In this document: positions 36,264 through 49,682 of the stretch, piece after piece
How the letters are laid out: every line of letters begins with the position of its first letter
Numbering within the stretch: position 1 is the stretch's first letter
DNA from: Oceanispirochaeta sp.
GTDB lineage: Bacteria; Spirochaetota; Spirochaetia; DSM-2461
Direction: 5' to 3'
Length of the DNA stretch: 64,000 nt
Assembly: GCA_963666275.2 (NCBI GenBank)
Contig: CAXXOA010000001.1
Span: 2,208,001 to 2,272,000, forward strand
Notes under the pieces: model-generated
What the model was told of the DNA's origin: nothing
Database searches by the model: none
Seen by the model: only the letters and a program-made list of their open reading frames with translations
Made by a program: the position numbers and the translations under genes

Positions 36264-37159
36264 TCCCTCTCCTCTCTTTGGCTCTGCACGATTAACCAGG
36301 GTGTTACAATTTCAAGGAACTCCTCAGGAGATTCCTGATGGGGTAGATGCCCCGACCGGGGGATGATTTCCATTCTGGCTCCTGGAATGAGAGACTGCAT
36401 GATCTCACCCGATGAGGCGGGCAGAACCCTGTCCATCTCACCCCAGACAATCAGTACGGGAAGATCAAGCCGGGACAGGTCATCCCGGAACCGTTCACTC
36501 TTGTCAAGCCACAGGGAGAACCTGCGGAGAATGGAAAAGTAGGCGTGCCTCTGCCTGTTGTCGGAAACCCTGTCATGGACCCGTTCATAGAGAAAATCCC
36601 GGTCCTTCCGGGACATCCCCTCCAGATCGGCATAATAGGGATTCAGAGATTTAAAGGCTTCCACAGGCTGGTTCTTTAAACGGCTGTAGAGGAATTCCCC
36701 CACTACCGGCATAAGAAAAAGGAGACTGGAAAGACTGATTTTCTGCTTCTGCGGAACCAGGGCGCCGTCAGCCAGTACCTGAGAGATCATCCTATCGGGA
36801 TAATGCAGCCCACTATACTGAATCAGCATGGCTCCCAGGGAACTTCCTATAAAATGGGCCCTCTGAATATCCAGGACATCAAGAAACTCCAGAAGAGAAT
36901 CTTTCAGAAAATCCATCGTGTAGGAACGGGAGGGTTTATCGCTTCTGCCGAATCCCGGTAGATCCGGAGCCACTATCCTGTAATTCCGGCTTAAACCGGG
37001 GATAACATGGCGCCAGGTATCAGCCTCATCGGCCAGTCCGTGGATGAGAACGCAAACAGGCTTATCCTCTCCGGCAGTATCAAGATAGAAGAGATTCAAT
37101 CCCGACTTATCAAGCCGGACCGATGAGGCGTATGTCTTCAGATCATCCCAGACATTCAT
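36260..37159 (-). CDS. Alpha/beta hydrolase
   Basis: LIHG, DLPGFGRS, GSSLG nucleophile elbow, WGEMD and GHLPHQE motifs. Confidence 0.92.
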   Translation of the reverse strand: MNVWDDLKTYASSVRLDKSGLNLFYLDTAGEDKPVCVLIHGLADEADTWRHVIPGLSRNYRIVAPDLPGFGRSDKPSRSYTMDFLKDSLLEFLDVLDIQRAHFIGSSLGAMLIQYSGLHYPDRMISQVLADGALVPQKQKISLSSLLFLMPVVGEFLYSRLKNQPVEAFKSLNPYYADLEGMSRKDRDFLYERVHDRVSDNRQRHAYFSILRRFSLWLDKSERFRDDLSRLDLPVLIVWGEMDRVLPASSGEIMQSLIPGARMEIIPRSGHLPHQESPEEFLEIVTPWLIVQSQREERE

Positions 37160-38232
37160 GAGCGGACCCTTTTATTGAGATGGGAATATTCCCTGTCTTT
37201 CATAATCACATGCCGATAGACAAGGTCCTGGGATATATAGTTCAGGAGGGTGATAGGATCCGTTTCATTCTGTCTGAAAAGATCGATGAGAGTACTGAAA
37301 CGGGAAATCAGTTTATTATGCTCCAGAATATGTTCCTTAAGCCCCGGATAGGCCAGTCCTTCCAGGATAGCTTCTTCCGCCCGGAAGTGCTCTGTCACGT
37401 GATGGAGCATCTCATCCAGAGAGGATTCAAGATAATCCGTATCCGTGTGTTTCAGAACCGAATCCAGGATTTTATTGGAATACTGGAAAATCTCCCGGTG
37501 ACGGAGATCTATATCATCGATACCCGCCGAATACTCATGCTTCCATTCAAGTCTCAGTGCACTGTCGGGTACGGACTCTTCTGTTTCTGTTCGGTTTATA
37601 TCCTCGGGAGACATGACCGCAAGGTTCCGTCCGGAATCTTTGGCATGATAGAGGGCCTCATCCGCCCGGGTAAACCAGCTGTTGAAAGTCTCTCCGCTGC
37701 GGAAGGAACTGATCCCGATACTGACAGTCACATCCGCCAGTTCTTTCAAGGGGGATGTTTCTATCCTGTCACGGATCTTTTCCGCCAGGATCAGGGCATT
37801 TACCCCGGTGGTATCTGAAGCGAGAATCAGAAATTCCTCCCCTCCCCAGCGGGCGAAACAGTCGGTTTTACGGCAGATACCCGTGATGGTCCGGGCCACC
37901 TGCTTTAACACCCTGTCGCCGAAATCATGACCGTAACTGTCATTAATCCTTTTGAAATGATCCAGATCCAGGATAAGAAGGGATACGGGTGTCTGAAAAC
38001 GGTTGCATCTGTGCATGGCATTGAGGATACTGGGCTCAATAGCGCGTCTGTTCATAAGACCTGTGAGCATATCTGTCATGGAGAGGCTGTCAAGTTTTCT
38101 GTTTTCTGCCCGGAGCTGACTGTTTTCCTTTCCCAGCTCCCGGACAGAGCTTCTGAGAGAGGACATTTTCAGGGTAAGGAAAACTATGGATCCTACTAAA
38201 ATAACAAAAGCACAGATAAAAAAGATCAGCAC
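37156..38232 (-). CDS. Membrane-anchored diguanylate cyclase with a C-terminal hemerythrin domain
   Basis: N-terminal TM segment; RKTD I-site and RWGGEEF; then ID..H..., HF..EE, H..EH and H....D iron-ligand pattern. Confidence 0.88.
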   Translation of the reverse strand: MLIFFICAFVILVGSIVFLTLKMSSLRSSVRELGKENSQLRAENRKLDSLSMTDMLTGLMNRRAIEPSILNAMHRCNRFQTPVSLLILDLDHFKRINDSYGHDFGDRVLKQVARTITGICRKTDCFARWGGEEFLILASDTTGVNALILAEKIRDRIETSPLKELADVTVSIGISSFRSGETFNSWFTRADEALYHAKDSGRNLAVMSPEDINRTETEESVPDSALRLEWKHEYSAGIDDIDLRHREIFQYSNKILDSVLKHTDTDYLESSLDEMLHHVTEHFRAEEAILEGLAYPGLKEHILEHNKLISRFSTLIDLFRQNETDPITLLNYISQDLVYRHVIMKDREYSHLNKRVRS

Positions 38233-38350: not shown

Positions 38351-39025
38351 TCATAAAGATTCTTCCATCTGCGTTTCCAGGCTATTCAGACCCTTTTCAA
38401 GGGGATGCCCCGGAGAGATTAGAGCCCGGCATTTTCCCAGAATTTCCCGGGACTTCTCGGGATACCCGTAAAAGCTGTAGATTTCAGCCAGTTCCAGATA
38501 GATCTCATACCGGGTTTCCATAAGCAGACTGGCCTGTTCCAGATATACCAGAGCCTCTTCAAGATCTCCCTCCTCCCGCAGGGAGAGAGCTTTCAGGTAG
38601 TGGAGCTCCGGATCCCTGCCGGAACGGGCGAGCCCCCTGTCCAGAAGGGAATCCGCCTCCCGGGATCTTCCCGTATTCAAATAGATTCTGCTCAGGTATT
38701 TGATGCAGTCTATATCCTCCTCACTCCGGGAAGCCAGTTTTTCCCAGACCTTTGCCGCCTTATCCCGGTTCCCGGAAAAATAGAGTGTCCGGGCATAGAG
38801 TTTTTCCGCATCCCCATCAAAAGTCCTCCCTCCGCATAGTTCTTCCAGAATGATCAGGGCGGTCTCCCTGTCCCCCTGATTGTAGAGAACCGCCGCTTTT
38901 TTCAGCTGTTCCTCCCTGACAGCCTGTCTGTGTTCTCTTCTGCCGCTGCATCCCGTAAACACAAGGACCGCCAAAACGATTAGCACCAGGAAGTTCTCTG
39001 TTTTTACTGTTGTTCTTCTACTCAT
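38351..39025 (-). CDS. TPR-repeat lipoprotein
   Basis: Lipobox FTGC; helical TPR-like repeats; divergent from the giant gene. Confidence 0.8.
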   Translation of the reverse strand: MSRRTTVKTENFLVLIVLAVLVFTGCSGRREHRQAVREEQLKKAAVLYNQGDRETALIILEELCGGRTFDGDAEKLYARTLYFSGNRDKAAKVWEKLASRSEEDIDCIKYLSRIYLNTGRSREADSLLDRGLARSGRDPELHYLKALSLREEGDLEEALVYLEQASLLMETRYEIYLELAEIYSFYGYPEKSREILGKCRALISPGHPLEKGLNSLETQMEESL

Positions 39026-39053
39026 ACAGGGGCTTACGGATTTTTTTTCCTCT

Positions 39054-39086
39054 GTGATTCAATTTTTTCCTCTTTTTTTGAATCAC
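39054..39086. promoter_or_regulatory. Inverted repeat in the divergent promoter (candidate operator)
   Basis: GTGATTCAA-N15-TTGAATCAC. Confidence 0.45.
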
Positions 39087-39141
39087 CCTTTATTTTTCTC
39101 CTGTAGTACAGGGTAGATCCCCCCTATAGGAAGGTTATGTT

Positions 39142-42100
39142 ATGAGAAACAGGTTTATCTCTTTACTCCTTGTACTGTCTTTTCTGCCTCTGCCTGTCAG
39201 TCCGGAACAGGGAGCCCCTTCTCTGTCTCTACCGGAGGAATCATCATGGACAGTCTATGACATCCATCGATCCCTTTCGGAAAGTCTCTCCCATTCGGAT
39301 CTGAATCTCCTATTAACAGGAATGGACCAGCTTGAAAGGGAATTCCTCTACAGGACGGAAGGGGGAAACCTCCTTTTTGACAGTAAAAATGATCCCCTTC
39401 TGAGGAGCAGTGATCCCGCTGAGATAGAACAGGACAGAACCCTTTATGAAAACCGGGCCCGTGCCATTCAGGAGACCCTGCTTTCCCAATGGGAGGAAAA
39501 GGCCCAGAAAGCAAGAACTGTTCTTATGACACCCCTGTCTCAGGGGCAGACAGCACTATCGGAGACAGTGGAGAGGGAGCTGGATCTCTTCCGGCAGAGG
39601 ATATGGGAAGAGACAGACAAGATGATCTGCTACAGGCTGGACCGATTCAACTACTTCAGAAAAAAGGATAATTTCTCACTGCGCAGAAAAAGCGAAGACC
39701 AGACTGCACTCATGGCAGCCGCAGAGCTGACAGAAAGGGTGAATGATGAAACCCGGGAGATCCTGCAGATACTGGAAAAACCATTAGACAGGGAAAGCGG
39801 TGCTGCAGTCAGCCAGGCGTCCTTTTCTCCTGATTCCTGGGAAGAGAGCTTTGACAGGGAGTTCCGGAAGGGCCTTGAAAAATGGCAGAAAGCGGAAGAG
39901 GAAATCCTTTCCGGCCGTATAGACTGGGAACTGGAGCTTTCTGAAAAGTACAGAGAAACCGAAGCCGCCTGGGACAGGTCAATGCAGATTTTCTCAGATA
40001 CAAGGAAAGCCTGGATAGAGGAGATGAAGGATCTCTACAGAACGGGCCTGAACGCATGGGATCTGCAGCAGGAAGAGTATCAGGAAAAGTTTGAAACCAT
40101 GGCCAGGCAGATGGAGGAGGACTCTATCCGTCAGGAGGAGATATTCCTTTCCCGCGTAACAGAGTCTCTGGATATCTACAGGGAGAGTCTGCAGTACAGG
40201 GATTCGGCAGAGAAAAATATTCAGTATTACCAGAGTAAAATCCGGGAATTGGAGGATCTGAAAGCCAATAGCCGGAACAGAATAGACAGCATTGAAACCG
40301 GTATGGCCGCTGCCATGTTTGCCATGAGATTGAATGAGGGCAAACTTCAGAATTCTCAGGTGGAACTTCAGGATCTGCAGAACACTCTGGAATTGCTTCA
40401 GAATGAACGGCAGGAGATCGGGGATGATCTTGATGCTGTGAATGGACGGATTGAAGATTCTGAAGATCTTGAAGAAGAGCTTCAGGACCTGCTTGAAAAA
40501 CAGCAGAATCTGAGGGAAAGGCTGATTGAAGTGAATGAGCAGATTGAGGACACAGAAAATGGAATAGTGACTCTGGAATCAGATATACTTAGAGAACAGA
40601 GGATCCTCGACTCCTACTACACTTCTTATGCCCCCCAGCTGAATGCCATAGCCCTGGAAAGGGGGTATATCATCAGCTATGACATAAAACGTTCTGATTT
40701 TCTGAAGGAAAAAGAGACATGGGAATCCCTGAGCAAAGAGTTTTCCGGGCAGATGAAAAGGGCCGAAGAGGACCTGATCTCTCTTCAGGCGGAAGCCGGC
40801 GCTTATGACACATCGGTCCCCTCTTCCTCCCTGGAACAGGAGATTGCCAGAATGGAACTGGTCACGGAATACCTTTTCCATCAGCTTGCCGTATCAGAAG
40901 CTGTGATGGAATACGCCTCACAGGACACATCTCTCCGACCCCGGGATTCTCAGACACAGGAGGATTACGATGAGGCTCTTTCCAGCCTGGAAGAAGGGGA
41001 AAGGGAATACCTCAGCTTCCAGTCCCGTCTGGACTCGCTCAGAGAGGACCTGACAGGGCTGCAGGAACAGATCCTGGCAAAGGAAAAGGCTCTTCAGGAA
41101 ACCCTGGAGGCTCAGACAGAAGCGGGAAAAGCCTATGAAATGTCCCAGGAGATCTACAGGAACAGTGACATATCCCTTCTGCAGGCCGGAATCAGCAGCC
41201 TACAGGATCAGCTGGATGCCTGGTTCCAGGGAAAAGACTCGGCCCCCCCGGAACGTCAGACACTCTATACAGAATATATCCATGCCGGACAGGCCGACTG
41301 GGTCAGGGAAAAAGAGGAAGCTGCCAGGACTCTGCTGCGGGATCTGACAGGAGAGGAAACTCTCATGGAGAGCGATAACATTACCAATACAGAGGATCTG
41401 TCCCTTCTTATCGCCAATCTTGAAAATCTTGATCCCCGAAGAACTGCATCAGCAGAAGAGTGGGAAAACCAGCTGATTTCCTGCGGTTTTGAACAGGGAG
41501 ACTACGAGTATGAAATCCTTCAGAATCAATTCGGCACAACCCCTTTTCATAGACTCTCTCTGGATAAAGCCCTCCGGGATCTTATCAGGGAACAGAAACA
41601 GAAGTACTGGAATAATGCCCTCCTGGAGGAGAGGCTCCGTCAGGAAGATGACCCATCCCGGAACCTTCAGGAGGATCTGGATAGGGCTCTAAACAGCCTT
41701 TTACTAGAAAAAACAGAGCTTATGATTCTGATCGGAGGCTATCTGAAAGACGGCGGAGAAGTCCTTGCTCCCTACAGGGAGTATATATCTTTTCTGAAAG
41801 ATCAGGGATTCCGGCTGGAACAGGACTCTCTGGATGGCCTGATTCAATTGAGAGAGCTGCTGAACAGACAGCTGGCAGGAGAAATCGGAAAAGAAGAGCT
41901 TTTAACCCTGGTATCAGAACAGGGCGGCCCGGCACTCTGGCTGAGTTATCTAAACGGAGACAACAGCGATATGCCCCCGGAACTTTCCTTCCTGGATATC
42001 TTTCCGGAGGCATCCTATGATGAGGTTCTCCGTGCCCGGGGCGCTCTCTTTGCAGGTGAGTGTATACAGCAGTTCAACACGGGGGCAGAGGTCCTTTTCA

Positions 42101-45100
42101 ATTCATCGGGAATTGATATGGAAACGCTTCTTGAGAGTCTTGAAACCCCGGAAGATCTCAGGCAGTTTTATTCAGATTTTATGAGAGACCCGGAAATTCC
42201 CCCCTCTCTATTATCTCTGGTGGAAAAATACCTGCATTCCCGTTTTGCCGGCCAGTGGGAGGCACTGCTAGCAGACTGGAGTGGTACGGAGGAAAGATGC
42301 GAAAATCTGGAAGACCTGATGGAAGGGATGGAAAGTAACCAGAGTGACGACGAAAAGCTGACTCTTCTGGAAAATAACGGATTCAGCGACGAGGTAGCGG
42401 AACTCCGCAGATACAGGCTTCTCGAGTCATGGCAGACCTTCCTCAAGAACCCGGACAGTCCTGATTTGCCTGAGGGGGAAATGTGGTTGCTGTTCCGGAA
42501 CAGTCATGAAACCGGTGAGATCGATTATGAAACCCTCACTTCTCTGGAAGTTTCCCTGGAAAACCTACCGCCACTCATACCCTATACTTCCTATGGGGGC
42601 AAATCGCTTTTTGAACATATAGAATCTCATTACGGGGACCTTGGATTCACCGGCAGGATCCGTATGATTGAGGAACTCAAGGGATTTCAGTCCGGTACAG
42701 ACGGGGTCCTCTGGTATCTGGAGCAGCAGCTCCACTCACGTTATACAGAGGCCCTGGAGAACAGGGAGTATGCGGCCTTTCTGGAACGAGTCAAATCCAT
42801 AAGAAGAGAGAGCGGCAGTGATGCCCATGAAGAGCTCTTTATGAAAGAACGGATTGGCCAGGCAGGGGATCTTTTACGAGGGGAAACCTCCCTGATTGCT
42901 CAGGAAGACTCTTTCGAAACTCTGGCGGACAGGCTCATATCCATGACAGGTTTAATGGAAAGCCGGGAAAAAGAGAGGAATCAGCTCCAGAGGGAAAAGG
43001 ATATTTTTGCCGAATCTCTCTCCCTGTATAAACAACTTATTATAGACCAGAATTTTGAGGACTTTACTAAAGCCAAATCACTCTATGGGCAGACAAAAAG
43101 TGAAATGGAAACGTTGAGAACCACCTATGGTGAATTACTGGGAGAATATCAGACAGCCCGGAACGCTGTGGAAAGCTCTTACACCCGGTACAAAAAGTTG
43201 AAACTGGACCTTCAGAAGGCCGAAGAAATTCTGGATTATGCGGGGTGCGCCTATGAATCAGTCTCCTACAGTATTGATACTCTCCGGGATCAGAGACAAC
43301 AGGCCTATGATGATTCCCTGAAGGCTCTGGAGATTCTCAAAAGCATTCAGCTGGAGGGAAAAACAGAGATAGAAGCGGATGCCCAGTGGGCTCAGGCCCT
43401 GGAGGAGTACCGGCAGAGGCTGTCTGCTTTGAATCAGATTGGATCTGCCAGGGAAAATCTTGACGAACAAATGGATTCTCTCACAGCAGCCAGGGAAAGG
43501 GCCTTTTCTCAGATGGGAGACACTCTGAAAAAGGTCTTTAATCAATACGGACAGGATTCTCTTATTATGCTCCGGGGAGAAATCCCGACACAGCCCATGT
43601 CGGACTGCACAGTGTTTTCCAATGGCAATCTGGGCTCCTATTTCGACGCAGAGAATATTCAGGAGATCTTTACCGGTGATGCCTGCCGCTGGCTGGAGAG
43701 TATAAAAAACCTGAACTCCCAGGAGGTACTGAAACTTTTCACATTCGCCTACTATCATGAGTTCGGAGGCAGGGTAAACCTTTTTTCCAACTCCCAGCAT
43801 AAGAATCTTCTGGATACAAAAGGCGATTTCTTCAGAAAAGCCTGTATCGGCTATGAGGGTGATATGAACACATATCGGAGCGGCGGGTATTCATCCCGGG
43901 AGGTGACAAGAAAAATCCATCGGCCTGACGGAAGCATTAAAAAAGTATTCATTAAGCCCGAAGTCTGGTTAAAAGAACATACAGGGTCCTATTACAACCG
44001 TGTGGTCAATGATAAAAGCCTGGTCAATCTCTACAGCTTTTTTAAAATTGTCATGCAGAAGGGATTTTTTCTGGCTGAAATGGAAGACAGTATGGCCATG
44101 GAACTTTCAGATCTGGCATGGGATTACCTGAACGATGTGGCCAAGGACGAACAGGAAGATGAAAAAAATATTTTCGGTAAACTGAACAGTCTGGGCAGGG
44201 ACATCAGGGAGAAAAGGCATGCCATCAAAAAGATAAAGAACAATGGCGGTTTTGACGGAACCGCCAAAAGACAGACTCTGCTTGATATGGGAGCAGAGAT
44301 TTCTAATCATACAAGCCTGATCCTGGGTTTTGACAGTCAAATGAAATCCCTTATGAACAGCGGTTCTGTTACAACCGCAACTCTTCTGAGAGATATAGCC
44401 CAGATCAGCGGATCCCCTCTGAAGGAGAGTTCCAGAGAATTGCTGAAACAAATTTTTCAGGAGACCGGAGATTCCTATGAAACCAACAGACAGGCTCTGC
44501 AGAAGCTCTATGGGGATCTTGAAAAAATCTGCAGCATCAGCCGGAATGCTGTTGCTGCAAGAGAGAATGAACTGTCTTCGGAAAGAACAATTCTTCTGGA
44601 GCAGATGCGGGTCTTTTCCCGGAAGGGGGATCTGGAAAAATATAAGGACCTGGCATTGAACCTTTTCGAATCCCCCTCCTATCTGGAGGGAGAGAGTCAG
44701 ATACAAAGGGGTGATCTTCTTCTTGAGACCCCTTCCTTCAGTCCAAGGGGTTTCCTGAATAATCTGAATGCCTATGGGGCCTCTCTGTCCTCGCTCTACA
44801 GAAAACGGCTTGAAATGATCAAACAGAAAACCTATCGCCAGTTGGAACTGGATGTTGAGGAGTTTCAGCAGAGAAGGAAAATCTGGCAGCAGCGCTTTCA
44901 GGAACAGATGGATGACGGCATGGCCCAATGGAAGCTCTCGACTGAGCGGATGATAGGACAGAGAGAAAAATGGCGTGAACAGTTTCTCAGGGAGTACAGA
45001 TCCAAAGACAGTCTCTGGACCATCCGGATGGAGAACTTTTACAGAAACAGAGAATCCTGGATTTATGAAACAACTCTCAATGCCTGTGAGGCCGGAGCGG

Positions 45101-48100
45101 ACTTTATGCAGGAGGAGTACGGCCTGAAGGCAGATCAGCTGATCAATCAGTCCCGGTATTTTCTGATTCCCTCCGTTGGAAATGCCCTTCCGGATGTATC
45201 GGAAATTCTCAATGATGCCATGGAAGGCATCAAAGTGGATCAGATACTCGCTTCCTTTTCCAGCCGAAACGGCAGGATCAGCAGCGGCGGCGCCCTCATC
45301 ACACCTCCTGTCTCTGTTTTTCAGCCCCGTCCCATAGACGCCAGACCTCTTCTGGAAGAACAGAGGGATCTGAAAGAAAAGTTCCGGAAATCCCTTGTCA
45401 TAACTCTGGCCTATCAGATGACGGATGCGCTGAAAGAGACAGAAACATCAGTTCAGGACTCCATAGAAGATGCCAACAGATCCACGGATAACTCAGTGGA
45501 AGACACCCTTGTGAGCAGCGGATATTACAGGAGGGGAAATACATTTTCCCGGCAGATCATTATCGATAAAAGTGTTCTGGGGGGAAATGAAACGGAAACC
45601 CAGAGAATTGAGGCGTTCAGAGACTTTCAGGCCCCCTCCTTTGATCATGGAGTGGAACTCTCGGTAAACAGCCTCAAACATCTGAGCAGTACCCTTATCC
45701 AGGCCCGTGTGGAAAAAGCACAGACCAATATGCAGCACTATCTGGATCTGATATTCGGCAGGGAAAAGGACAGAGAAGGTAATGAACTTGATATCCGTAC
45801 GGGACTGGACGAAGGATTTCTCTCCTATCTGGAAAATCAGGAGACGGCCTTCAGGAGTTCCGCCCAGTATAACGGGGGATTTACAGATGAGAACGGCAAA
45901 TGGCAGACCGAAGGAAAACATACCGAAACAGCAGGGCTCTTCTATTTCCATGTAGGCTATGCTCCCGAAATGAAAGAGAAAAAGCCCGAAGAAGTAAAAT
46001 CCGAAGGTTACGGAGAGATGGGACGCATCTTCAGAGCCTTTAAAATTCACCAGGCCCGTATGTACAGGGGATTCTCTGTGATGGATATGCCCCGGTACAA
46101 CCAGAAACTCTGGGATGATGATGCGGACAATGACGGAAGTTCTGACTCTCTTGTGGGGGCTCCCTCCATGCGAAGCCTAACTGATATTGCCATGAATATA
46201 GCCGTATCTGCCGTCCTGGGTCCGGGAGTGGGAAATCTTGTACTCACCGCCGCCCTGAACCTGGTGGATGATGCCCTTTTCACAGCCCTGGATGTGCAGA
46301 ACGGCCAGCAGAAATCCGGAAAAGCCTGGGGAGACTTCCGCCGGAAAACCGCCATGACAGCCGTTACAACAGCCTCCGGGGCCGTTTTTCAAAAACTGGA
46401 CGGCCTCACTATGATGTCAGAGGCTTCCGGCAGTATGACAGCTGAAGTGATCACTGATACAGCTATTGCCGGGACTCAAACGGCTGTAAATTCAACAGCC
46501 CTGGCAGCGATTGGTAATATTGAGGACTGGAAAAGCTTTGATACGGAGAGTTTTCAGAAGCAGGCATCACTTGAAAATAACCGGGAAGCCTATTTGAACG
46601 GAATGAGCGGCGCGGCTGTCTCCTCTTTGATCGATACCGGAGCTTTCGGATACATAAAAAGTATGAAGACCAACGCAGATAAACTGAGTCAGCTGGCGGG
46701 AGGGCTGACCTCCTCCGGGATGGAATATGCTCTGACAGGAGAGACAAAACTCAATATTGTAAATCTGAGCATGCTCGGTCTGCAGGGAAAAAGCGGTTTA
46801 GTCTCTTCCGGCCTCCTTGAACTGAATCTGGGCGGCAGCGGTTCCCTGCTCTCTATCGGCAACGGCGGGACAGACATCAGTGCGGGAACCATCGGTTCAG
46901 CTCTCAGGGGACTGGAAATCTATCAACATAACCGGGAAATACGGGAATCCGACATGGATACAAGAATGTCTCTAGCCATGAGAACACTGGTTTCATCAGA
47001 AATGGAACAGACGGAACAGCAGTACCGGGACATCCTCAATCATAAAATTGCGTTTACTTCTGTTCAGGAATCGGGTTATGATGGAAAAACCACCATGAAT
47101 GAAGACGGCAAAAAGTCCATAGAATTAAACAGCTCAGACTTAACCAGTTTTGACCTGGCAGTCCTGCTGGCCCATGAATCCTTCCGGGACGGTGTTATCA
47201 GTGACAAAGACTCACAGAACAGAGAAACCCAGGATGCCGTCCGCTCCCATATGGATGTGTCTTCCGCCATTCAGGATACCTACGGATCATCCTATCTGAG
47301 CATTGATAATAACAAGGAAGCCCGCATCTATAAAATGTACCAGAACGGCATGATTTCCAAAGAAGATTTAGGAAACTATGCACTGAAGAATTATGATTCC
47401 TCGGCGGATTATTGGAAGTTTACATCTGACGGCAACATTATTTTTGATGGAAAAAAGAATCTCTATGATGAAAATGGAAAACTTCTTGATGAATATGAAG
47501 GGAACGGAGGTTTCACGGACTCCCTTGCTGCAATGCTTGGTATTTCAAAGAAAGCTGCCAATCAAATGATGGTGAATGCGGGTTGGTCATGGGAGAATGG
47601 TACATTTAAAGCCAATGGCGTAGATGTTTTAAACAATGGAAATACAGCATTAAATACCTCAGATCAAATGAAAGCCCAGTATTTTGTCCAGAGAGATTAT
47701 GTTGATAAGTTATGGTCGACCTATGCAGGTGATATGAGAGCAATGGCAACTGCCATGCAGGAAGATCTTTTCATTGCAAGCAATGATGGAGATTTCAATT
47801 CCACTCAAAAACATATGCTCGATATGATCCCAGGATTACAATCCATGGGAAATCAATTGAAAGTAGCTCTATACGGAGATTCTAGTCATTCAGGAATGCT
47901 GGATCAGGATAGGTTTGATAATTACCACGACTCAAATGTCTCAGGTGCATTTCAGGAAATCAAAGATAATTGGAGTTATACAGATGATAATCCCATGTAT
48001 AGACTTATTGGAGATGGTAAACCCATAGATCCTATTGAAGGAGACGATTATATTACTGTTTGGTCTAGCTATGCAAATGGAAATGAACATGGTTGGAATG

Positions 48101-48444
48101 GTGGAGAAGCCGTTGATTTTGGTACTGATCGTAAAAATCATCCTCTTTTTACTACTCAGTTTGAAACTATACGTACTAATGATTTCAATTTAGGATGGGA
48201 TAAAGGTGATATAAATAAAGGTACTGGTTATACATTAAGATCTGACTCTGATTTATTTTATTTAAAATATGGACATATGCAAGCATCATCTTTTGCTTCA
48301 AGCCAATTGCAAAACTTGATAAATACTGCAAGCCAGTCAGAATTATGGCGTTTCATGTTGCCTCCTGGTTATCAGATAGGAAATATTGGAAATACAGGAC
48401 ATTCAACAGGCAAACATTTACATTGGGAATTCTATCCATATTGA
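39142..48444 (+). CDS. Giant (3100 aa) exported coiled-coil protein with a C-terminal M23-like peptidase domain; candidate polymorphic toxin
   Basis: Signal peptide, long acidic coiled coils, hydrophobic Gly/Ala-rich segment near aa 2350, terminal H...AVDF / YGHM / IG.IGNTGHSTGKHLHWE; AT-rich 3' end. Confidence 0.75.
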   Translation: MRNRFISLLLVLSFLPLPVSPEQGAPSLSLPEESSWTVYDIHRSLSESLSHSDLNLLLTGMDQLEREFLYRTEGGNLLFDSKNDPLLRSSDPAEIEQDRTLYENRARAIQETLLSQWEEKAQKARTVLMTPLSQGQTALSETVERELDLFRQRIWEETDKMICYRLDRFNYFRKKDNFSLRRKSEDQTALMAAAELTERVNDETREILQILEKPLDRESGAAVSQASFSPDSWEESFDREFRKGLEKWQKAEEEILSGRIDWELELSEKYRETEAAWDRSMQIFSDTRKAWIEEMKDLYRTGLNAWDLQQEEYQEKFETMARQMEEDSIRQEEIFLSRVTESLDIYRESLQYRDSAEKNIQYYQSKIRELEDLKANSRNRIDSIETGMAAAMFAMRLNEGKLQNSQVELQDLQNTLELLQNERQEIGDDLDAVNGRIEDSEDLEEELQDLLEKQQNLRERLIEVNEQIEDTENGIVTLESDILREQRILDSYYTSYAPQLNAIALERGYIISYDIKRSDFLKEKETWESLSKEFSGQMKRAEEDLISLQAEAGAYDTSVPSSSLEQEIARMELVTEYLFHQLAVSEAVMEYASQDTSLRPRDSQTQEDYDEALSSLEEGEREYLSFQSRLDSLREDLTGLQEQILAKEKALQETLEAQTEAGKAYEMSQEIYRNSDISLLQAGISSLQDQLDAWFQGKDSAPPERQTLYTEYIHAGQADWVREKEEAARTLLRDLTGEETLMESDNITNTEDLSLLIANLENLDPRRTASAEEWENQLISCGFEQGDYEYEILQNQFGTTPFHRLSLDKALRDLIREQKQKYWNNALLEERLRQEDDPSRNLQEDLDRALNSLLLEKTELMILIGGYLKDGGEVLAPYREYISFLKDQGFRLEQDSLDGLIQLRELLNRQLAGEIGKEELLTLVSEQGGPALWLSYLNGDNSDMPPELSFLDIFPEASYDEVLRARGALFAGECIQQFNTGAEVLFNSSGIDMETLLESLETPEDLRQFYSDFMRDPEIPPSLLSLVEKYLHSRFAGQWEALLADWSGTEERCENLEDLMEGMESNQSDDEKLTLLENNGFSDEVAELRRYRLLESWQTFLKNPDSPDLPEGEMWLLFRNSHETGEIDYETLTSLEVSLENLPPLIPYTSYGGKSLFEHIESHYGDLGFTGRIRMIEELKGFQSGTDGVLWYLEQQLHSRYTEALENREYAAFLERVKSIRRESGSDAHEELFMKERIGQAGDLLRGETSLIAQEDSFETLADRLISMTGLMESREKERNQLQREKDIFAESLSLYKQLIIDQNFEDFTKAKSLYGQTKSEMETLRTTYGELLGEYQTARNAVESSYTRYKKLKLDLQKAEEILDYAGCAYESVSYSIDTLRDQRQQAYDDSLKALEILKSIQLEGKTEIEADAQWAQALEEYRQRLSALNQIGSARENLDEQMDSLTAARERAFSQMGDTLKKVFNQYGQDSLIMLRGEIPTQPMSDCTVFSNGNLGSYFDAENIQEIFTGDACRWLESIKNLNSQEVLKLFTFAYYHEFGGRVNLFSNSQHKNLLDTKGDFFRKACIGYEGDMNTYRSGGYSSREVTRKIHRPDGSIKKVFIKPEVWLKEHTGSYYNRVVNDKSLVNLYSFFKIVMQKGFFLAEMEDSMAMELSDLAWDYLNDVAKDEQEDEKNIFGKLNSLGRDIREKRHAIKKIKNNGGFDGTAKRQTLLDMGAEISNHTSLILGFDSQMKSLMNSGSVTTATLLRDIAQISGSPLKESSRELLKQIFQETGDSYETNRQALQKLYGDLEKICSISRNAVAARENELSSERTILLEQMRVFSRKGDLEKYKDLALNLFESPSYLEGESQIQRGDLLLETPSFSPRGFLNNLNAYGASLSSLYRKRLEMIKQKTYRQLELDVEEFQQRRKIWQQRFQEQMDDGMAQWKLSTERMIGQREKWREQFLREYRSKDSLWTIRMENFYRNRESWIYETTLNACEAGADFMQEEYGLKADQLINQSRYFLIPSVGNALPDVSEILNDAMEGIKVDQILASFSSRNGRISSGGALITPPVSVFQPRPIDARPLLEEQRDLKEKFRKSLVITLAYQMTDALKETETSVQDSIEDANRSTDNSVEDTLVSSGYYRRGNTFSRQIIIDKSVLGGNETETQRIEAFRDFQAPSFDHGVELSVNSLKHLSSTLIQARVEKAQTNMQHYLDLIFGREKDREGNELDIRTGLDEGFLSYLENQETAFRSSAQYNGGFTDENGKWQTEGKHTETAGLFYFHVGYAPEMKEKKPEEVKSEGYGEMGRIFRAFKIHQARMYRGFSVMDMPRYNQKLWDDDADNDGSSDSLVGAPSMRSLTDIAMNIAVSAVLGPGVGNLVLTAALNLVDDALFTALDVQNGQQKSGKAWGDFRRKTAMTAVTTASGAVFQKLDGLTMMSEASGSMTAEVITDTAIAGTQTAVNSTALAAIGNIEDWKSFDTESFQKQASLENNREAYLNGMSGAAVSSLIDTGAFGYIKSMKTNADKLSQLAGGLTSSGMEYALTGETKLNIVNLSMLGLQGKSGLVSSGLLELNLGGSGSLLSIGNGGTDISAGTIGSALRGLEIYQHNREIRESDMDTRMSLAMRTLVSSEMEQTEQQYRDILNHKIAFTSVQESGYDGKTTMNEDGKKSIELNSSDLTSFDLAVLLAHESFRDGVISDKDSQNRETQDAVRSHMDVSSAIQDTYGSSYLSIDNNKEARIYKMYQNGMISKEDLGNYALKNYDSSADYWKFTSDGNIIFDGKKNLYDENGKLLDEYEGNGGFTDSLAAMLGISKKAANQMMVNAGWSWENGTFKANGVDVLNNGNTALNTSDQMKAQYFVQRDYVDKLWSTYAGDMRAMATAMQEDLFIASNDGDFNSTQKHMLDMIPGLQSMGNQLKVALYGDSSHSGMLDQDRFDNYHDSNVSGAFQEIKDNWSYTDDNPMYRLIGDGKPIDPIEGDDYITVWSSYANGNEHGWNGGEAVDFGTDRKNHPLFTTQFETIRTNDFNLGWDKGDINKGTGYTLRSDSDLFYLKYGHMQASSFASSQLQNLINTASQSELWRFMLPPGYQIGNIGNTGHSTGKHLHWEFYPY

Positions 48445-48460
48445 TTGAGGAGGGAAGAAT

Positions 48461-48994
48461 ATGAGATTAAAAAAAGTAATTATATACAGTCTCATAGTTA
48501 TATATCTAGTTTCATGTAATAAAGCAAAAGAGGACAAAAACATAGATACAAATGATAGTATTATGATTAAAACCAACACAATAAATACTTTAAATGAAGA
48601 AGCAGATATTTTGAGTTCTGACAAAACTGATATTTCGGATTTTACGAACTTTCAGGAGTTGTTTGAAAATCTTCCTATGCCAACAAGTTTGATTGCAAAA
48701 TTTGGAGAAAAGTCATATCTTGGAACATTTTATATTGGAAAAGATGGTATTGAAGAAGCTGTATTTGAAAGCAGTGGGTATGAAATTATCATAGATTCAG
48801 TGGATATAACAGAAAAGCTATTTACTGTAAATTTTTCATTATTAGATACAGGTAATGAGGTAAAAGAAGCAACTGGAGAAGTTTTCTCTTACACTTTAAG
48901 AGTTACTCTTAGTGATTTACTTAATGCCTATAAAAACTCAGAAAATAGATTAAGAATGGAAATACAAGGTAAAAAAGTTGGAGCGAAACCATAA
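48461..48994 (+). CDS. AT-rich lipoprotein; candidate immunity protein
   Basis: Lipobox LVSC; GAGGAGG RBS; 16 bp after the giant gene and as AT-rich as its tip. Confidence 0.7.
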   Translation: MRLKKVIIYSLIVIYLVSCNKAKEDKNIDTNDSIMIKTNTINTLNEEADILSSDKTDISDFTNFQELFENLPMPTSLIAKFGEKSYLGTFYIGKDGIEEAVFESSGYEIIIDSVDITEKLFTVNFSLLDTGNEVKEATGEVFSYTLRVTLSDLLNAYKNSENRLRMEIQGKKVGAKP

Positions 48995-49061
48995 CTATGA
49001 ATATCCTTTTGTTAGTTGATATTTTCAATTCCTATTACCGAGCAGAGCAAAACTCCATGTG

Positions 49062-49202
49062 GCCCCCAACCCCTAAAGGGTCGTCATTTGCAGGTTAATC
49101 TGAAACCTGATTAATCGACAGCAAAAAATAGAGGCTAAAAATAATAATCCTATACTGATGAAGTGCCTCCCCTTTAGGAGCCGGGGGCCTTCAACAGAGC
49201 AG
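49062..49202. mobile_element. ~140-bp MITE/REP-like element, copy 1
   Basis: Imperfect inverted ends GCCCCCAACCCCTAAAGGG / CCCTTTAGGAGCCGGGGGC; direct repeat of 49455-49594. Confidence 0.65.
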
Positions 49203-49275
49203 ACACCTCTTATCATTAGGAAAAAAATCTTAAGAGTGTTATGGTGTAGAGGATGGTTCTTTTCATAAACAATTG

Positions 49276-49682
49276 GGCTTCGGCTCCGCTCAGCCACCGG
49301 GTTTTCTAATTAGTGTAATTAAGACCAAACCACTATATAAAACTTTTTCACTCTCATCCCAAAGGAAGCATGAGCTTGTTTAACTTATTCTAGCTCACCC
49401 ATAATGTCTTTTTGGAATAGATGAGCTAACCTGCCAATTTCAAAATACCGTGAAGCCCCCAACCCCTAAAGGGTCGTCATTTGCAGGTTAACCTGAAACC
49501 TGAATAATCAGCAGCAAAAAATAGAGGCTAAAAAAATATTCCAATACAGAAGAGGTGCCTCCCCCTTAGGGGCCGGGGGCCTTCAACAGAGCAGCTAATC
49601 CCTCACCAAAAAAAACACCCCTACACAGAACCAACGGTGGCTGAGCGGATGGTTGCTGAGCGAAGTCGAAGTAGCCGAAGCC
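49276..49682. repeat. REP-like inverted arm pair, right arm interrupted by a related unit
   Basis: GGCTTCGGCTCCGCTCAGCCACCG (49276-49299) versus CGGTGGCTGAGCGGA[24 bp]GCCGAAGCC (49635-49682). Confidence 0.7.
49455..49594. mobile_element. ~140-bp MITE/REP-like element, copy 2
   Basis: Closely similar to 49062-49202. Confidence 0.65.

What the first reader, a model, noticed from the sequence alone, without database searches (positions are those of the whole stretch)
38351..48994. Giant exported coiled-coil protein with an AT-rich M23 tip and downstream lipoprotein: candidate polymorphic toxin system
Seen: 3100 aa with a Sec signal, over 2000 aa of helical stalk, a hydrophobic Gly/Ala segment and a terminal M23-like domain. 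GC falls from 38/60 (46201-46260) to 17/60 (48181-48240) and stays low through the adjacent lipoprotein gene. There are no RHS/YD, haemagglutinin or RTX repeats. A TPR lipoprotein gene is divergent. Known: M23 enzymes cut peptidoglycan, and toxin tip plus immunity pairs often differ in composition from the stalk. It loosely recalls the very large Leptospira proteins of unknown function. Inference: a contact-dependent toxin on an alpha-helical stalk.
Basis: partly seen in the sequence, partly recalled or inferred. Interest (0 to 1): 0.8.

Follow-up and report, generated by a model that had tools for sequence, protein, structure and literature searches.

The report
Spirochaete pump-linked giant polymorphic toxin
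This 3,100-residue spirochaete protein ends in a swappable tip predicted to cut bacterial cell walls, is followed by a matching lipoprotein that likely protects the owner, and travels across the phylum with a TolC/twin-RND pump gene cluster that probably exports it, so it is likely an undescribed weapon-delivery system for fighting other bacteria.

Summary
Observation confirmed; the toxin reading is supported by genomics but untested at the bench. Homologues (26 of 61 relatives; 998 cluster representatives) keep the body up to an HExxR/YDSSADYW junction and then swap tips: 152 tips fell into 41 clusters, 140 read by motif as wall-enzyme types (M23, YkuD-like, papain-like, CHAP/NlpC, M15). Most tips are followed by a different AT-rich exported gene. 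The window's own M23 tip and lipoprotein recur together as a silent cassette behind a full-length gene in another genome (lipoprotein E 7e-9), in an array sharing 97-99% identical DNA. It adjoins the giant gene in many lineages, co-occurs with it (23 of 24 carriers), and flanks TIGR04388 giants in 7 of 10 neighbourhoods. Here it is split: the TPR gene stayed with the giant gene, and the rest lies 560 kb away beside a second tip-partner module. The scan noted this cassette beside a giant protein before on other DNA (e1-3518258); tip polymorphism was not in the lines shown. Export through the pump, toxicity and neutralisation are inferred. Nine paper searches found no description.

The parts
38351..39025 (-). 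TPR lipoprotein; first gene of the conserved TPR-lipoprotein-TolC-adaptor-Ig-Ig-RND-RND cassette, left beside the giant gene when the cassette was split in this clade
   Evidence: Pfam TPR; homologues head the cassette in 10 of the 20 neighbourhoods and in G359; stays beside the giant gene in G003, G004, G010
39142..48444 (+). 3100-aa giant carrier protein with exchangeable tip (predicted polymorphic toxin)
39142..39207 (+). predicted Sec signal peptide (aa 1 to about 22)
   Evidence: hydrophobic N-terminus in 21 of 23 full-length homologues; no signal-peptide predictor run
39208..45909 (+). conserved N-terminal domain (about aa 20-390) and long E/K/R/Q/L-rich helical stalk, length-variable, patchy coiled coil
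   Evidence: BLAST blocks, composition, heptad test, SMC match
45910..46917 (+). conserved Gly/Ala-rich, partly hydrophobic helical bundle (aa 2257-2592); candidate membrane-crossing part
   Evidence: alignment A1; hydropathy peak at aa 2353; AlphaFold helices; fold matches only generic helical bundles, Z 8 or less
46918..47391 (+). pre-tip domain with H2678-E2679-x-x-R and E2695-T-x-x-A-x-x-x-H2703; predicted zincin-like fold, candidate self-processing domain
   Evidence: HExxR in 150 of 152, second motif in 116; pLDDT about 68-94; deuterolysin Z 6.1 and SjiH Z 6.3, both under the Z 8 caution mark
47392..47418 (+). junction motif YDSSADYWK after which homologues diverge
47419..48444 (+). exchangeable AT-rich tip: spacer plus M23-type zinc peptidase (about aa 2950-3100) with a long H..D spacing (H2983/D2992), H3045, H3092-x-H3094
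   Evidence: the same tip class is in G037, G024, L154, L257, L283
48461..48994 (+). AT-rich lipoprotein (GC 0.28), predicted cognate periplasmic immunity protein
   Evidence: homologue follows the same tip in L283 (z 13.3, best of 50 downstream genes, next 2.5; BLASTP E 7e-9); no Pfam/NCBIfam/PHROG family
49048..49594 (.). two copies of a ~155-bp palindromic element downstream of the lipoprotein (not shown to belong to the system)

Best explanation
The giant gene encodes a conserved helical carrier with an exchangeable tip, here an M23-type peptidase predicted to cut peptidoglycan, followed by a matching lipoprotein that likely neutralises it, and it is probably exported by a dedicated TolC-adaptor-twin-RND machine to attack neighbouring bacteria. 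Steps: (1) Sec export to the periplasm (inferred from the signal-like N-terminus). (2) The TPR, small and two Ig-fold lipoproteins likely chaperone or anchor the chain at the TolC/adaptor/RND1/RND2 complex, which threads or holds it across the outer membrane (inferred from gene linkage only). (3) The helical stalk would span to a neighbour, and the Gly/Ala bundle would bring the tip into its periplasm (inferred). (4) The zincin-like domain may release the tip, as the HINT domain is thought to in the Leptospira-type giants (weakly inferred). (5) The tip would cut cross-links, while the lipoprotein protects the owner and its siblings (inferred from co-travel and matching compartment). (6) Tips and partners are swapped as units from silent cassettes (architecture shown; the recombination event itself inferred). 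My odds: polymorphic toxin-immunity 0.85; cassette is its export or display machine 0.6; self-cleavage by the pre-tip domain 0.35.
For: Body conserved, tips not: G004 core 58% / tip 20% identical to the window, G037 (another family) core 24% / tip 35%; the second module of this genome vs G006 core 51% / tip 80% with a 71% identical downstream gene. 152 tips in 41 clusters. Partner genes: 28 of 32 modules have an adjacent gene, 26 of these with a hydrophobic N-terminus; tip GC is below body GC in 23 of 27; a second set gave 50 of 61 with an adjacent gene, 43 hydrophobic. Pairing: related downstream genes in 7 of 24 pairs with related tips vs 10 of 354 others. FGE-domain lipoproteins follow papain-like tips; FGE proteins are shown T6SS immunity proteins in 10.1101/2021.05.21.445229 (abstract). 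G359 holds the full locus: 8-gene cassette, divergent 3157-aa gene, partner, then silent tip+partner cassettes sharing 566-1376 nt at 97-99%, one bearing the window's tip and lipoprotein homologue. In the G328 array nuclease tips are followed by genes that read as cytoplasmic, including Imm70 and Imm11. Cassette marker and giant gene co-occur in 23 genomes, 3 have the giant only, 1 the marker only, 34 neither, of 61. The cassette is adjacent to giant genes in other classes (5 of 11 neighbourhoods) and to TIGR04388 genes (7 of 10).
Against: No toxicity, neutralisation, secretion or localisation data. Some full-length genes lack an adjacent partner: G020 and G024 have none found, G323 and G303 run into housekeeping genes; 11 of 61 in the second set. 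The window's lipoprotein is not significantly like the partners behind two other same-class tips (G037 z 2.7, L154 z 0.1; L257 z 0.3). Most tip labels are my motif readings: 27 of 35 tested proteins had no Pfam hit. The pre-tip domain has canonical HExxH in 1 of 152. In this genome the pump genes lie 560 kb from the giant gene, and the second module is only 46% identical, too far for easy recombination. G321, G331, G236 and G057 show the cassette with no giant gene in the stretch fetched. I recall no precedent for protein export by an AcrB-type RND, and a TolC channel could pass only an unfolded or single-helix chain (recalled). The G328 modules share only the pre-tip domain with this family, and the nuclease ones lack it.
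Confidence: 0.65

Rival explanations
1. It is a polymorphic toxin, but the TolC/RND cassette is not its conduit: the cassette anchors or energises the stalk in the envelope, or serves another task, and the toxin leaves by another route such as vesicles or type II secretion.
For: The giant protein has a Sec-type N-terminus, unlike type I substrates. The cassette and giant gene are unlinked in this clade and in G024, G060, G031. Both permeases keep only the first of the two TM4 aspartates of AcrB (AcrB motif recalled).
Against: Near one-to-one co-occurrence and adjacency in several classes, with the RND2 stop overlapping or near the giant gene start in G243, G323, G354 require some obligatory link.
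Confidence: 0.2
2. The protein is a structural envelope filament or appendage whose tip remodels the cell's own wall during assembly; the lipoprotein is a regulator and the tips drift.
For: Most tips are wall-enzyme types; one full-length copy per genome is usual; some copies have no partner gene; the TIGR04388 family is named Lepto_longest and described as a putative structural protein (recalled).
Against: Unrelated folds replace one another at one junction, silent tip+partner arrays exist, tips cross family borders with their partners and are AT-rich, and some tips are nucleases or carry PT-TG.
Confidence: 0.1
3. It is a domesticated phage tape-measure or tail protein with a lytic tip, part of a tailocin-like particle.
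For: Long helical proteins with hydrophobic segments and terminal wall hydrolases are typical of tape measures (recalled); the tip's last 25 residues match phage peptidases and a Gp16 chain.
Against: No PHROG family matches the body of the window protein or of 3 homologues; it has a signal-like N-terminus; the conserved neighbours are pump genes, not tail genes.
Confidence: 0.04

Closest known systems
Polymorphic toxin systems (Zhang et al. 2012, PMC3482391), e.g. CDI, Rhs, MafB
   Same: Constant 5' body with variable C-terminal domain, adjacent partner gene, silent toxin+partner cassettes with shared DNA, a candidate processing domain before the tip.
   Different: The carrier has no RHS, FilH or other listed repeat and no Pfam/NCBIfam family; tips are mostly wall-enzyme types rather than nucleases; the linked trafficking genes are TolC/adaptor/twin RND, words absent from the 300,000 characters of that paper held.
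TIGR04388 Lepto_longest giants (LA_3725/LIC10502 type)
   Same: 2,000-3,200-aa exported proteins with variable ends, a following AT-poorer-than-body partner gene, and the same TolC/Ig/TPR/adaptor/twin-RND cassette in 7 of 10 neighbourhoods; weak two-way profile matches. PMC4751964 notes a pre-toxin HINT in LA_3725 (passage read).
   Different: The window protein does not match TIGR04388; it has no HINT, whereas 5 of 7 such giants tested do; it has a zincin-like pre-tip domain and two Ig lipoproteins rather than one. That LA_3725 belongs to TIGR04388 is recalled, not tested.
MdtABC-TolC / MuxABC-type twin-RND efflux pumps
   Same: Outer-membrane factor, adaptor above the TIGR01730 cut-off, and two AcrB-family permeases.
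   Different: All named RND equivalogs score far below cut-off; extra TPR, small and Ig-fold lipoproteins; tied to a giant polymorphic protein.
T6SS wall effectors with periplasmic immunity (Tae5/Tlde1 DUF2778, Tse3/Tsi3 FGE)
   Same: L,D-transpeptidase-like toxic domains with periplasmic immunity (10.1101/2020.02.18.954545, passages) and FGE-domain immunity (10.1101/2021.05.21.445229, abstract) parallel the family's YkuD-like tips and FGE partners.
   Different: No T6SS gene was recognised in the neighbourhoods; no tip matched DUF2778 in Pfam, so the YkuD label is a motif reading.

Membership tests
Polymorphic toxin systems | Constant body with variable C-terminal domains | tested here: met
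Polymorphic toxin systems | Standalone toxin cassettes sharing DNA with the full-length gene | tested here: met
   G359 array, 97-99% over 566-1376 nt; in the window's own genome the second module is only 46% identical in protein
Polymorphic toxin systems | Adjacent partner gene that varies with the tip | tested here: met
   exceptions G020, G024, G323, G303
Polymorphic toxin systems | Tip is toxic and is neutralised by the partner | not testable with these tools
   needs a bench assay
Polymorphic toxin systems | Export signal or trafficking genes | tested here: inconclusive
   signal-like N-terminus and linked pump cassette; route not shown
TIGR04388 Lepto_longest | Match over the model's curated cut-off (45 bits) | tested here: not met
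   no hit in G000 or 9 homologues; two homologues hit below cut-off
TIGR04388 Lepto_longest | Pre-toxin HINT domain | tested here: not met
   no HINT in the window protein; present in 5 of 7 family-f39 giants
CDI / Rhs / RTX toxins | FilH, RHS/YD or RTX repeats and their partner transporter | tested here: not met
Peptidase M23 | HxH motif, upstream catalytic His and H..D zinc ligands | tested here: met
   five residues invariant in 4 of 4; H..D spacing is 8 residues, not the usual HxxxD (recalled)
Peptidase M23 | Pfam PF01551 gathering score | tested here: not met
   22.5 bits vs 28.7
Peptidase M23 | M23 fold and peptidoglycan cleavage | tested here: inconclusive
   tip model pLDDT under 50; activity not testable
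Zincin metallopeptidases (pre-tip domain) | HExxH motif | tested here: not met
   HExxR in 150 of 152, HExxH in 1
Zincin metallopeptidases (pre-tip domain) | Zincin fold | tested here: inconclusive
   deuterolysin Z 6.1, rmsd 4.0, 104 aligned; SjiH Z 6.3, rmsd 4.2, 130 aligned; CapP Z 4.3
Tripartite RND efflux pumps (linked cassette) | Outer-membrane factor + adaptor + RND permease | tested here: met
Tripartite RND efflux pumps (linked cassette) | Intact proton relay and small-molecule export | tested here: inconclusive
   first TM4 Asp kept, second replaced in both permeases; other relay residues not checked
Phage tape-measure proteins | PHROG match and tail-gene context | tested here: not met

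The most novel reading that the evidence does not exclude
Spirochaetes have a phylum-wide, undescribed protein secretion system built on a heteromeric RND pump (TolC, adaptor, two AcrB-type permeases, TPR and Ig lipoproteins) that exports or displays giant helical polymorphic toxins; the Leptospira TIGR04388 giants and this family are its two cargo branches (HINT-processed and zincin-processed), and the aromatic-rich C-terminus of the tips may be a targeting signal.
Probability: 0.5. Interest if true: 0.93.

Novelty: new variant of a known kind. Interest (0 to 1): 0.83.

Why it matters
I know of no well-described interbacterial weapon native to spirochaetes (recalled). This system spans gut treponemes, free-living spirochaetes and the Leptospira family, and would explain the longest unexplained proteins in these genomes. 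If the cassette is the exporter, an AcrB-type pump would be moving a protein, a new secretion route, and genes now annotated as drug efflux would need re-reading. The family is also a library of dozens of predicted wall-cutting enzymes, each with a candidate inhibitor, and every step is directly testable in laboratory strains.

Tried and rejected
Complex prediction of tip + lipoprotein + zinc gave no verdict (score 0.00); the 3-row partner alignment used was weak. AlphaFold on aa 2590-3100 gave pLDDT 42 with the tip unresolved, and its fold search gave nothing above Z 5. Foldseek on the core model found no match at E<=0.001; the core profile found no solved relative. The lipoprotein found only itself in the protein database search. 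The ESM Atlas gave unnamed clusters at 0.90 and a Peptidase_M91 lead at 0.88 (32% of members) for the pre-tip domain, a lead only. A metagenome scan with the tip profile returned 75 loci, of which I read only the best, L154. A single-protein scan of named genomes found nothing. No sigma-70 promoter or terminator lies between the TPR and giant genes. No RNA holder listed. G048's hit to the small lipoprotein was rejected as spurious (no cassette). My ORF pruning first hid the G003 partner gene; it is an FGE lipoprotein. Tape-measure origin and TIGR04388 membership were considered and rejected. Five non-spirochaete labels with true modules (Fibrobacteria, Clostridia, Lachnospiraceae, Collinsella, Clostridium MAGs) were not taken as range extension, since mis-binning was not excluded.
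Full report
OBSERVATION. The GC counts are exact (38/60, 17/60). The tip plus lipoprotein fall in the lowest 0.6% of 900-bp bins of the contig, and GC3 drops to 0.19. The protein has no internal repeat and only two weak family matches of note: M23 at the very end (E 1.3e-4 for the tip, below cut-off) and SMC at 1207-1468. Heptad periodicity is patchy (23 of 146 windows at p<0.02). A tip profile finds M23-type proteins in 19 of 20 PDB hits, and five candidate active-site residues are invariant in 4 of 4 aligned tips.

THE FAMILY. The C-terminal 1101 aa match 26 of 61 related genomes. A core profile matches 23 of 301 genomes of the phylum and 998 cluster representatives. Named relatives are Spirochaetaceae and Treponema. 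Full-length members run from about 1,900 to 4,200 aa. Similarity ends shortly after an HExxR motif (H2678) and a YDSSADYWK junction. Of 177 stored proteins, 165 reached the end of the core and 152 had tips of 200 aa or more; these fell into 41 clusters. I assigned 140 by motif: M23 58, YkuD-like 35, papain-like 33, CHAP/NlpC 12, M15 2. The set is partly redundant and the motif labels are recalled. Pfam confirmed M23 in 3, M15_4 in 2, NlpC/P60 in 2 and PT-TG in 1 of 35 proteins tested; 27 had no hit. Body and tip have different histories: against the window, G004 is 58% identical in the core and 20% in the tip, while G037 from another family is 24% and 35%.

PARTNER GENES. Of 32 modules in fetched loci, 28 had an adjacent same-strand gene and 26 of those had a hydrophobic N-terminus; tips were AT-richer than bodies in 23 of 27 and partners in 24 of 27. 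A second set from a DNA-pattern scan gave 61 core-bearing ORFs (6 are frameshift fragments, and at least 4 loci repeat the first set); 50 had an adjacent gene and 43 of these were hydrophobic. Related partners followed related tips in 7 of 24 pairs against 10 of 354 other pairs; by my reading all but one of those 17 pairs share a tip class, the exception sharing an SH3 domain. FGE-domain lipoproteins follow papain-like tips and NADase_transloc-domain proteins follow YkuD-like tips. Against this, G020 and G024 have no partner found, G323 and G303 run into housekeeping genes, and the window's lipoprotein is not significantly like the partners behind same-class tips in G037, L154 or L257.

THE DECISIVE LOCUS. 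G359, reached through L283 (record titled Alkalispirochaeta sp.), has a 3157-aa gene, its partner, and then silent tip+partner cassettes sharing 566-1376 nt at 97-99% identity with the gene or each other. One cassette carries the window's tip (46-62% identity in four of the seven 50-aa blocks from aa 2750, 50% in a fifth) and a lipoprotein homologous to the window's (25% over 166 aa, E 7e-9; z 13.3, best of 50, next 2.5). The window's pair therefore travels as a unit between lineages. Similar arrays occur in G268, G243 and G328. In G328 six modules share a 310-825-nt leader at over 99%; nuclease-type tips are followed by genes with no evident signal peptide, among them Imm70 and Imm11. G328 shares only the pre-tip domain with this family and lacks the cassette marker, so it is indirect support. 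The window's own genome has a second, truncated 1053-aa module (C1:1673889-1670728) whose tip and FGE partner are 82% and 71% identical to those of the full-length G006 gene.

THE CASSETTE. Beside that second module lies a run of small lipoprotein, TolC-type factor, adaptor, two Big_5 lipoproteins and two AcrB-family permeases (C1:1677329-1689007). In G039, G020, G041, G116 and G359 this run, headed by a TPR gene, is divergent from the giant gene; in G243, G253, G323 and G354 it is upstream on the same strand. In G000, G003, G004 and G010 the TPR gene stayed with the giant gene and the rest moved. One Ig lipoprotein, used as marker, scores E<=1e-50 in 24 of 61 relatives (next best 8.6e-19): 23 also have the giant gene, 3 giant-bearing genomes lack it (one 85% complete, one only a broken fragment), and 34 have neither. 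Eight of the 17 marker sequences came from these genomes, and kin are not independent. Among 11 further marker neighbourhoods (10 from other classes, plus G057), 5 had a giant gene with profile matches adjacent, 1 a large open ORF, and 5 none in the stretch fetched. TIGR04388 matches 35 of 45 genomes of family f39, two homologues of our family weakly, and not the window; the same cassette, with one Ig gene, flanks 7 of 10 such genes, and 5 of 7 carry PT-HINT. I could not confirm its 'energy-dead' permease: both permeases keep the first TM4 aspartate and lack the second.

STRUCTURE. A model of aa 2257-2777 (pLDDT 73, pTM 0.62) shows a Gly/Ala-rich helical bundle and then an alpha/beta domain. 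The only listed rows confined to that domain are SjiH (Z 6.3) and deuterolysin (Z 6.1), both HExxH zincin-type folds by my recall; Z under 8 is weak. The motif is HExxR in 150 of 152, with a downstream ETxxAxxxH in 116, so a variant metal site is possible but unproven. It sits where HINT sits in the Leptospira-type giants.

MECHANISM AND RIVALS. Shown: modular architecture, tip exchange, partner co-travel, cassette linkage. Inferred: Sec export, passage or display through the TolC/twin-RND complex, delivery of the tip to a neighbour's periplasm, wall cleavage, neutralisation, self-processing. I put the toxin-immunity reading at 0.85 and the cassette as export machine at 0.6. The main rival keeps the toxin but gives the cassette an anchoring or unrelated role; self-wall remodelling and a tape-measure origin fit poorly.

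LITERATURE. Nine searches found no description of this system in the open library, which lacks most subscription papers. PMC3482391: I read passages and the first half of the Background; it defines polymorphic toxins by variable C-termini, cassettes and adjacent immunity, and the held 300,000 of 357,715 characters contain no RND, TolC, AcrB, M23 or Leptospira; its supplement was not seen and may bear on novelty. PMC4751964 (passages) notes a pre-toxin HINT in LA_3725. PMC2387172 (passages) lists LA3725/LIC10502 under an unrelated name. 10.1101/2021.05.21.445229 (abstract and outline) and 10.1101/2020.02.18.954545 (passages) give precedents for FGE immunity and L,D-transpeptidase-like toxins.

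VERDICT. A real and widespread system: a new variant of the polymorphic toxin kind with an unlisted carrier and, possibly, a new secretion route. Interest 0.83.

Noticed in passing
family-wide, last residues of the tips (window 48427-48441): Tips end in F/W/Y in 61 of 144 cases (12% inside tips; 9% of 583 genome ORFs); 67 of 144 have two or more aromatics in the last five residues; per-cluster mean 0.38. Possible C-terminal targeting signal; several Leptospira-type tips end in KK instead.
   Followed up: partly
window 49048-49594: Two 89% identical copies of a ~155-bp palindromic element downstream of the lipoprotein; only one further partial copy in the genome.
   Followed up: partly
L001:11917-15142 (G000 C1:1673916-1677141): Between the second module and the pump cassette lie two more lipoprotein genes (121 aa, GC 0.33; 313 aa), possible orphan immunity genes, and a 127-aa ORF that looks like a GIY-YIG nuclease (recalled motif).
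   Followed up: no
L230:3728-4507, L235:4390-5187, L238:11664-12467: A 259-267-aa gene with no Pfam family sits directly upstream of the giant gene in three genomes of other classes; an ECF-type sigma gene takes that place in G064.
   Followed up: no
L134-L135, L138-L139, L151, L153: In Leptospira-family loci 900-1060-aa genes lie between cassette and giant gene; the two tested (G130) carry Lcl_C and CHB_HEX_C_1 domains.
   Followed up: no
L086-L087 (G328 C1:789000-818000): Six tip modules with a near-identical leader, interleaved with IS elements, nuclease tips, Imm11, Imm70 and many orphan lipoproteins; no full-length carrier of this family was found in that genome.
   Followed up: partly
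L272, L282: Full-length genes behind RND pairs on contigs labelled Fibrobacteria and Clostridia; transfer or mis-binning not resolved.
   Followed up: no
G359 C1:1346894, 4160449, 4323364: One genome holds three full-length giant genes, at least two with arrays of silent cassettes.
   Followed up: partly
window 37156-38232: GGDEF + hemerythrin gene next to the TPR gene, syntenic in G003 and G004; probably unrelated.
   Followed up: no
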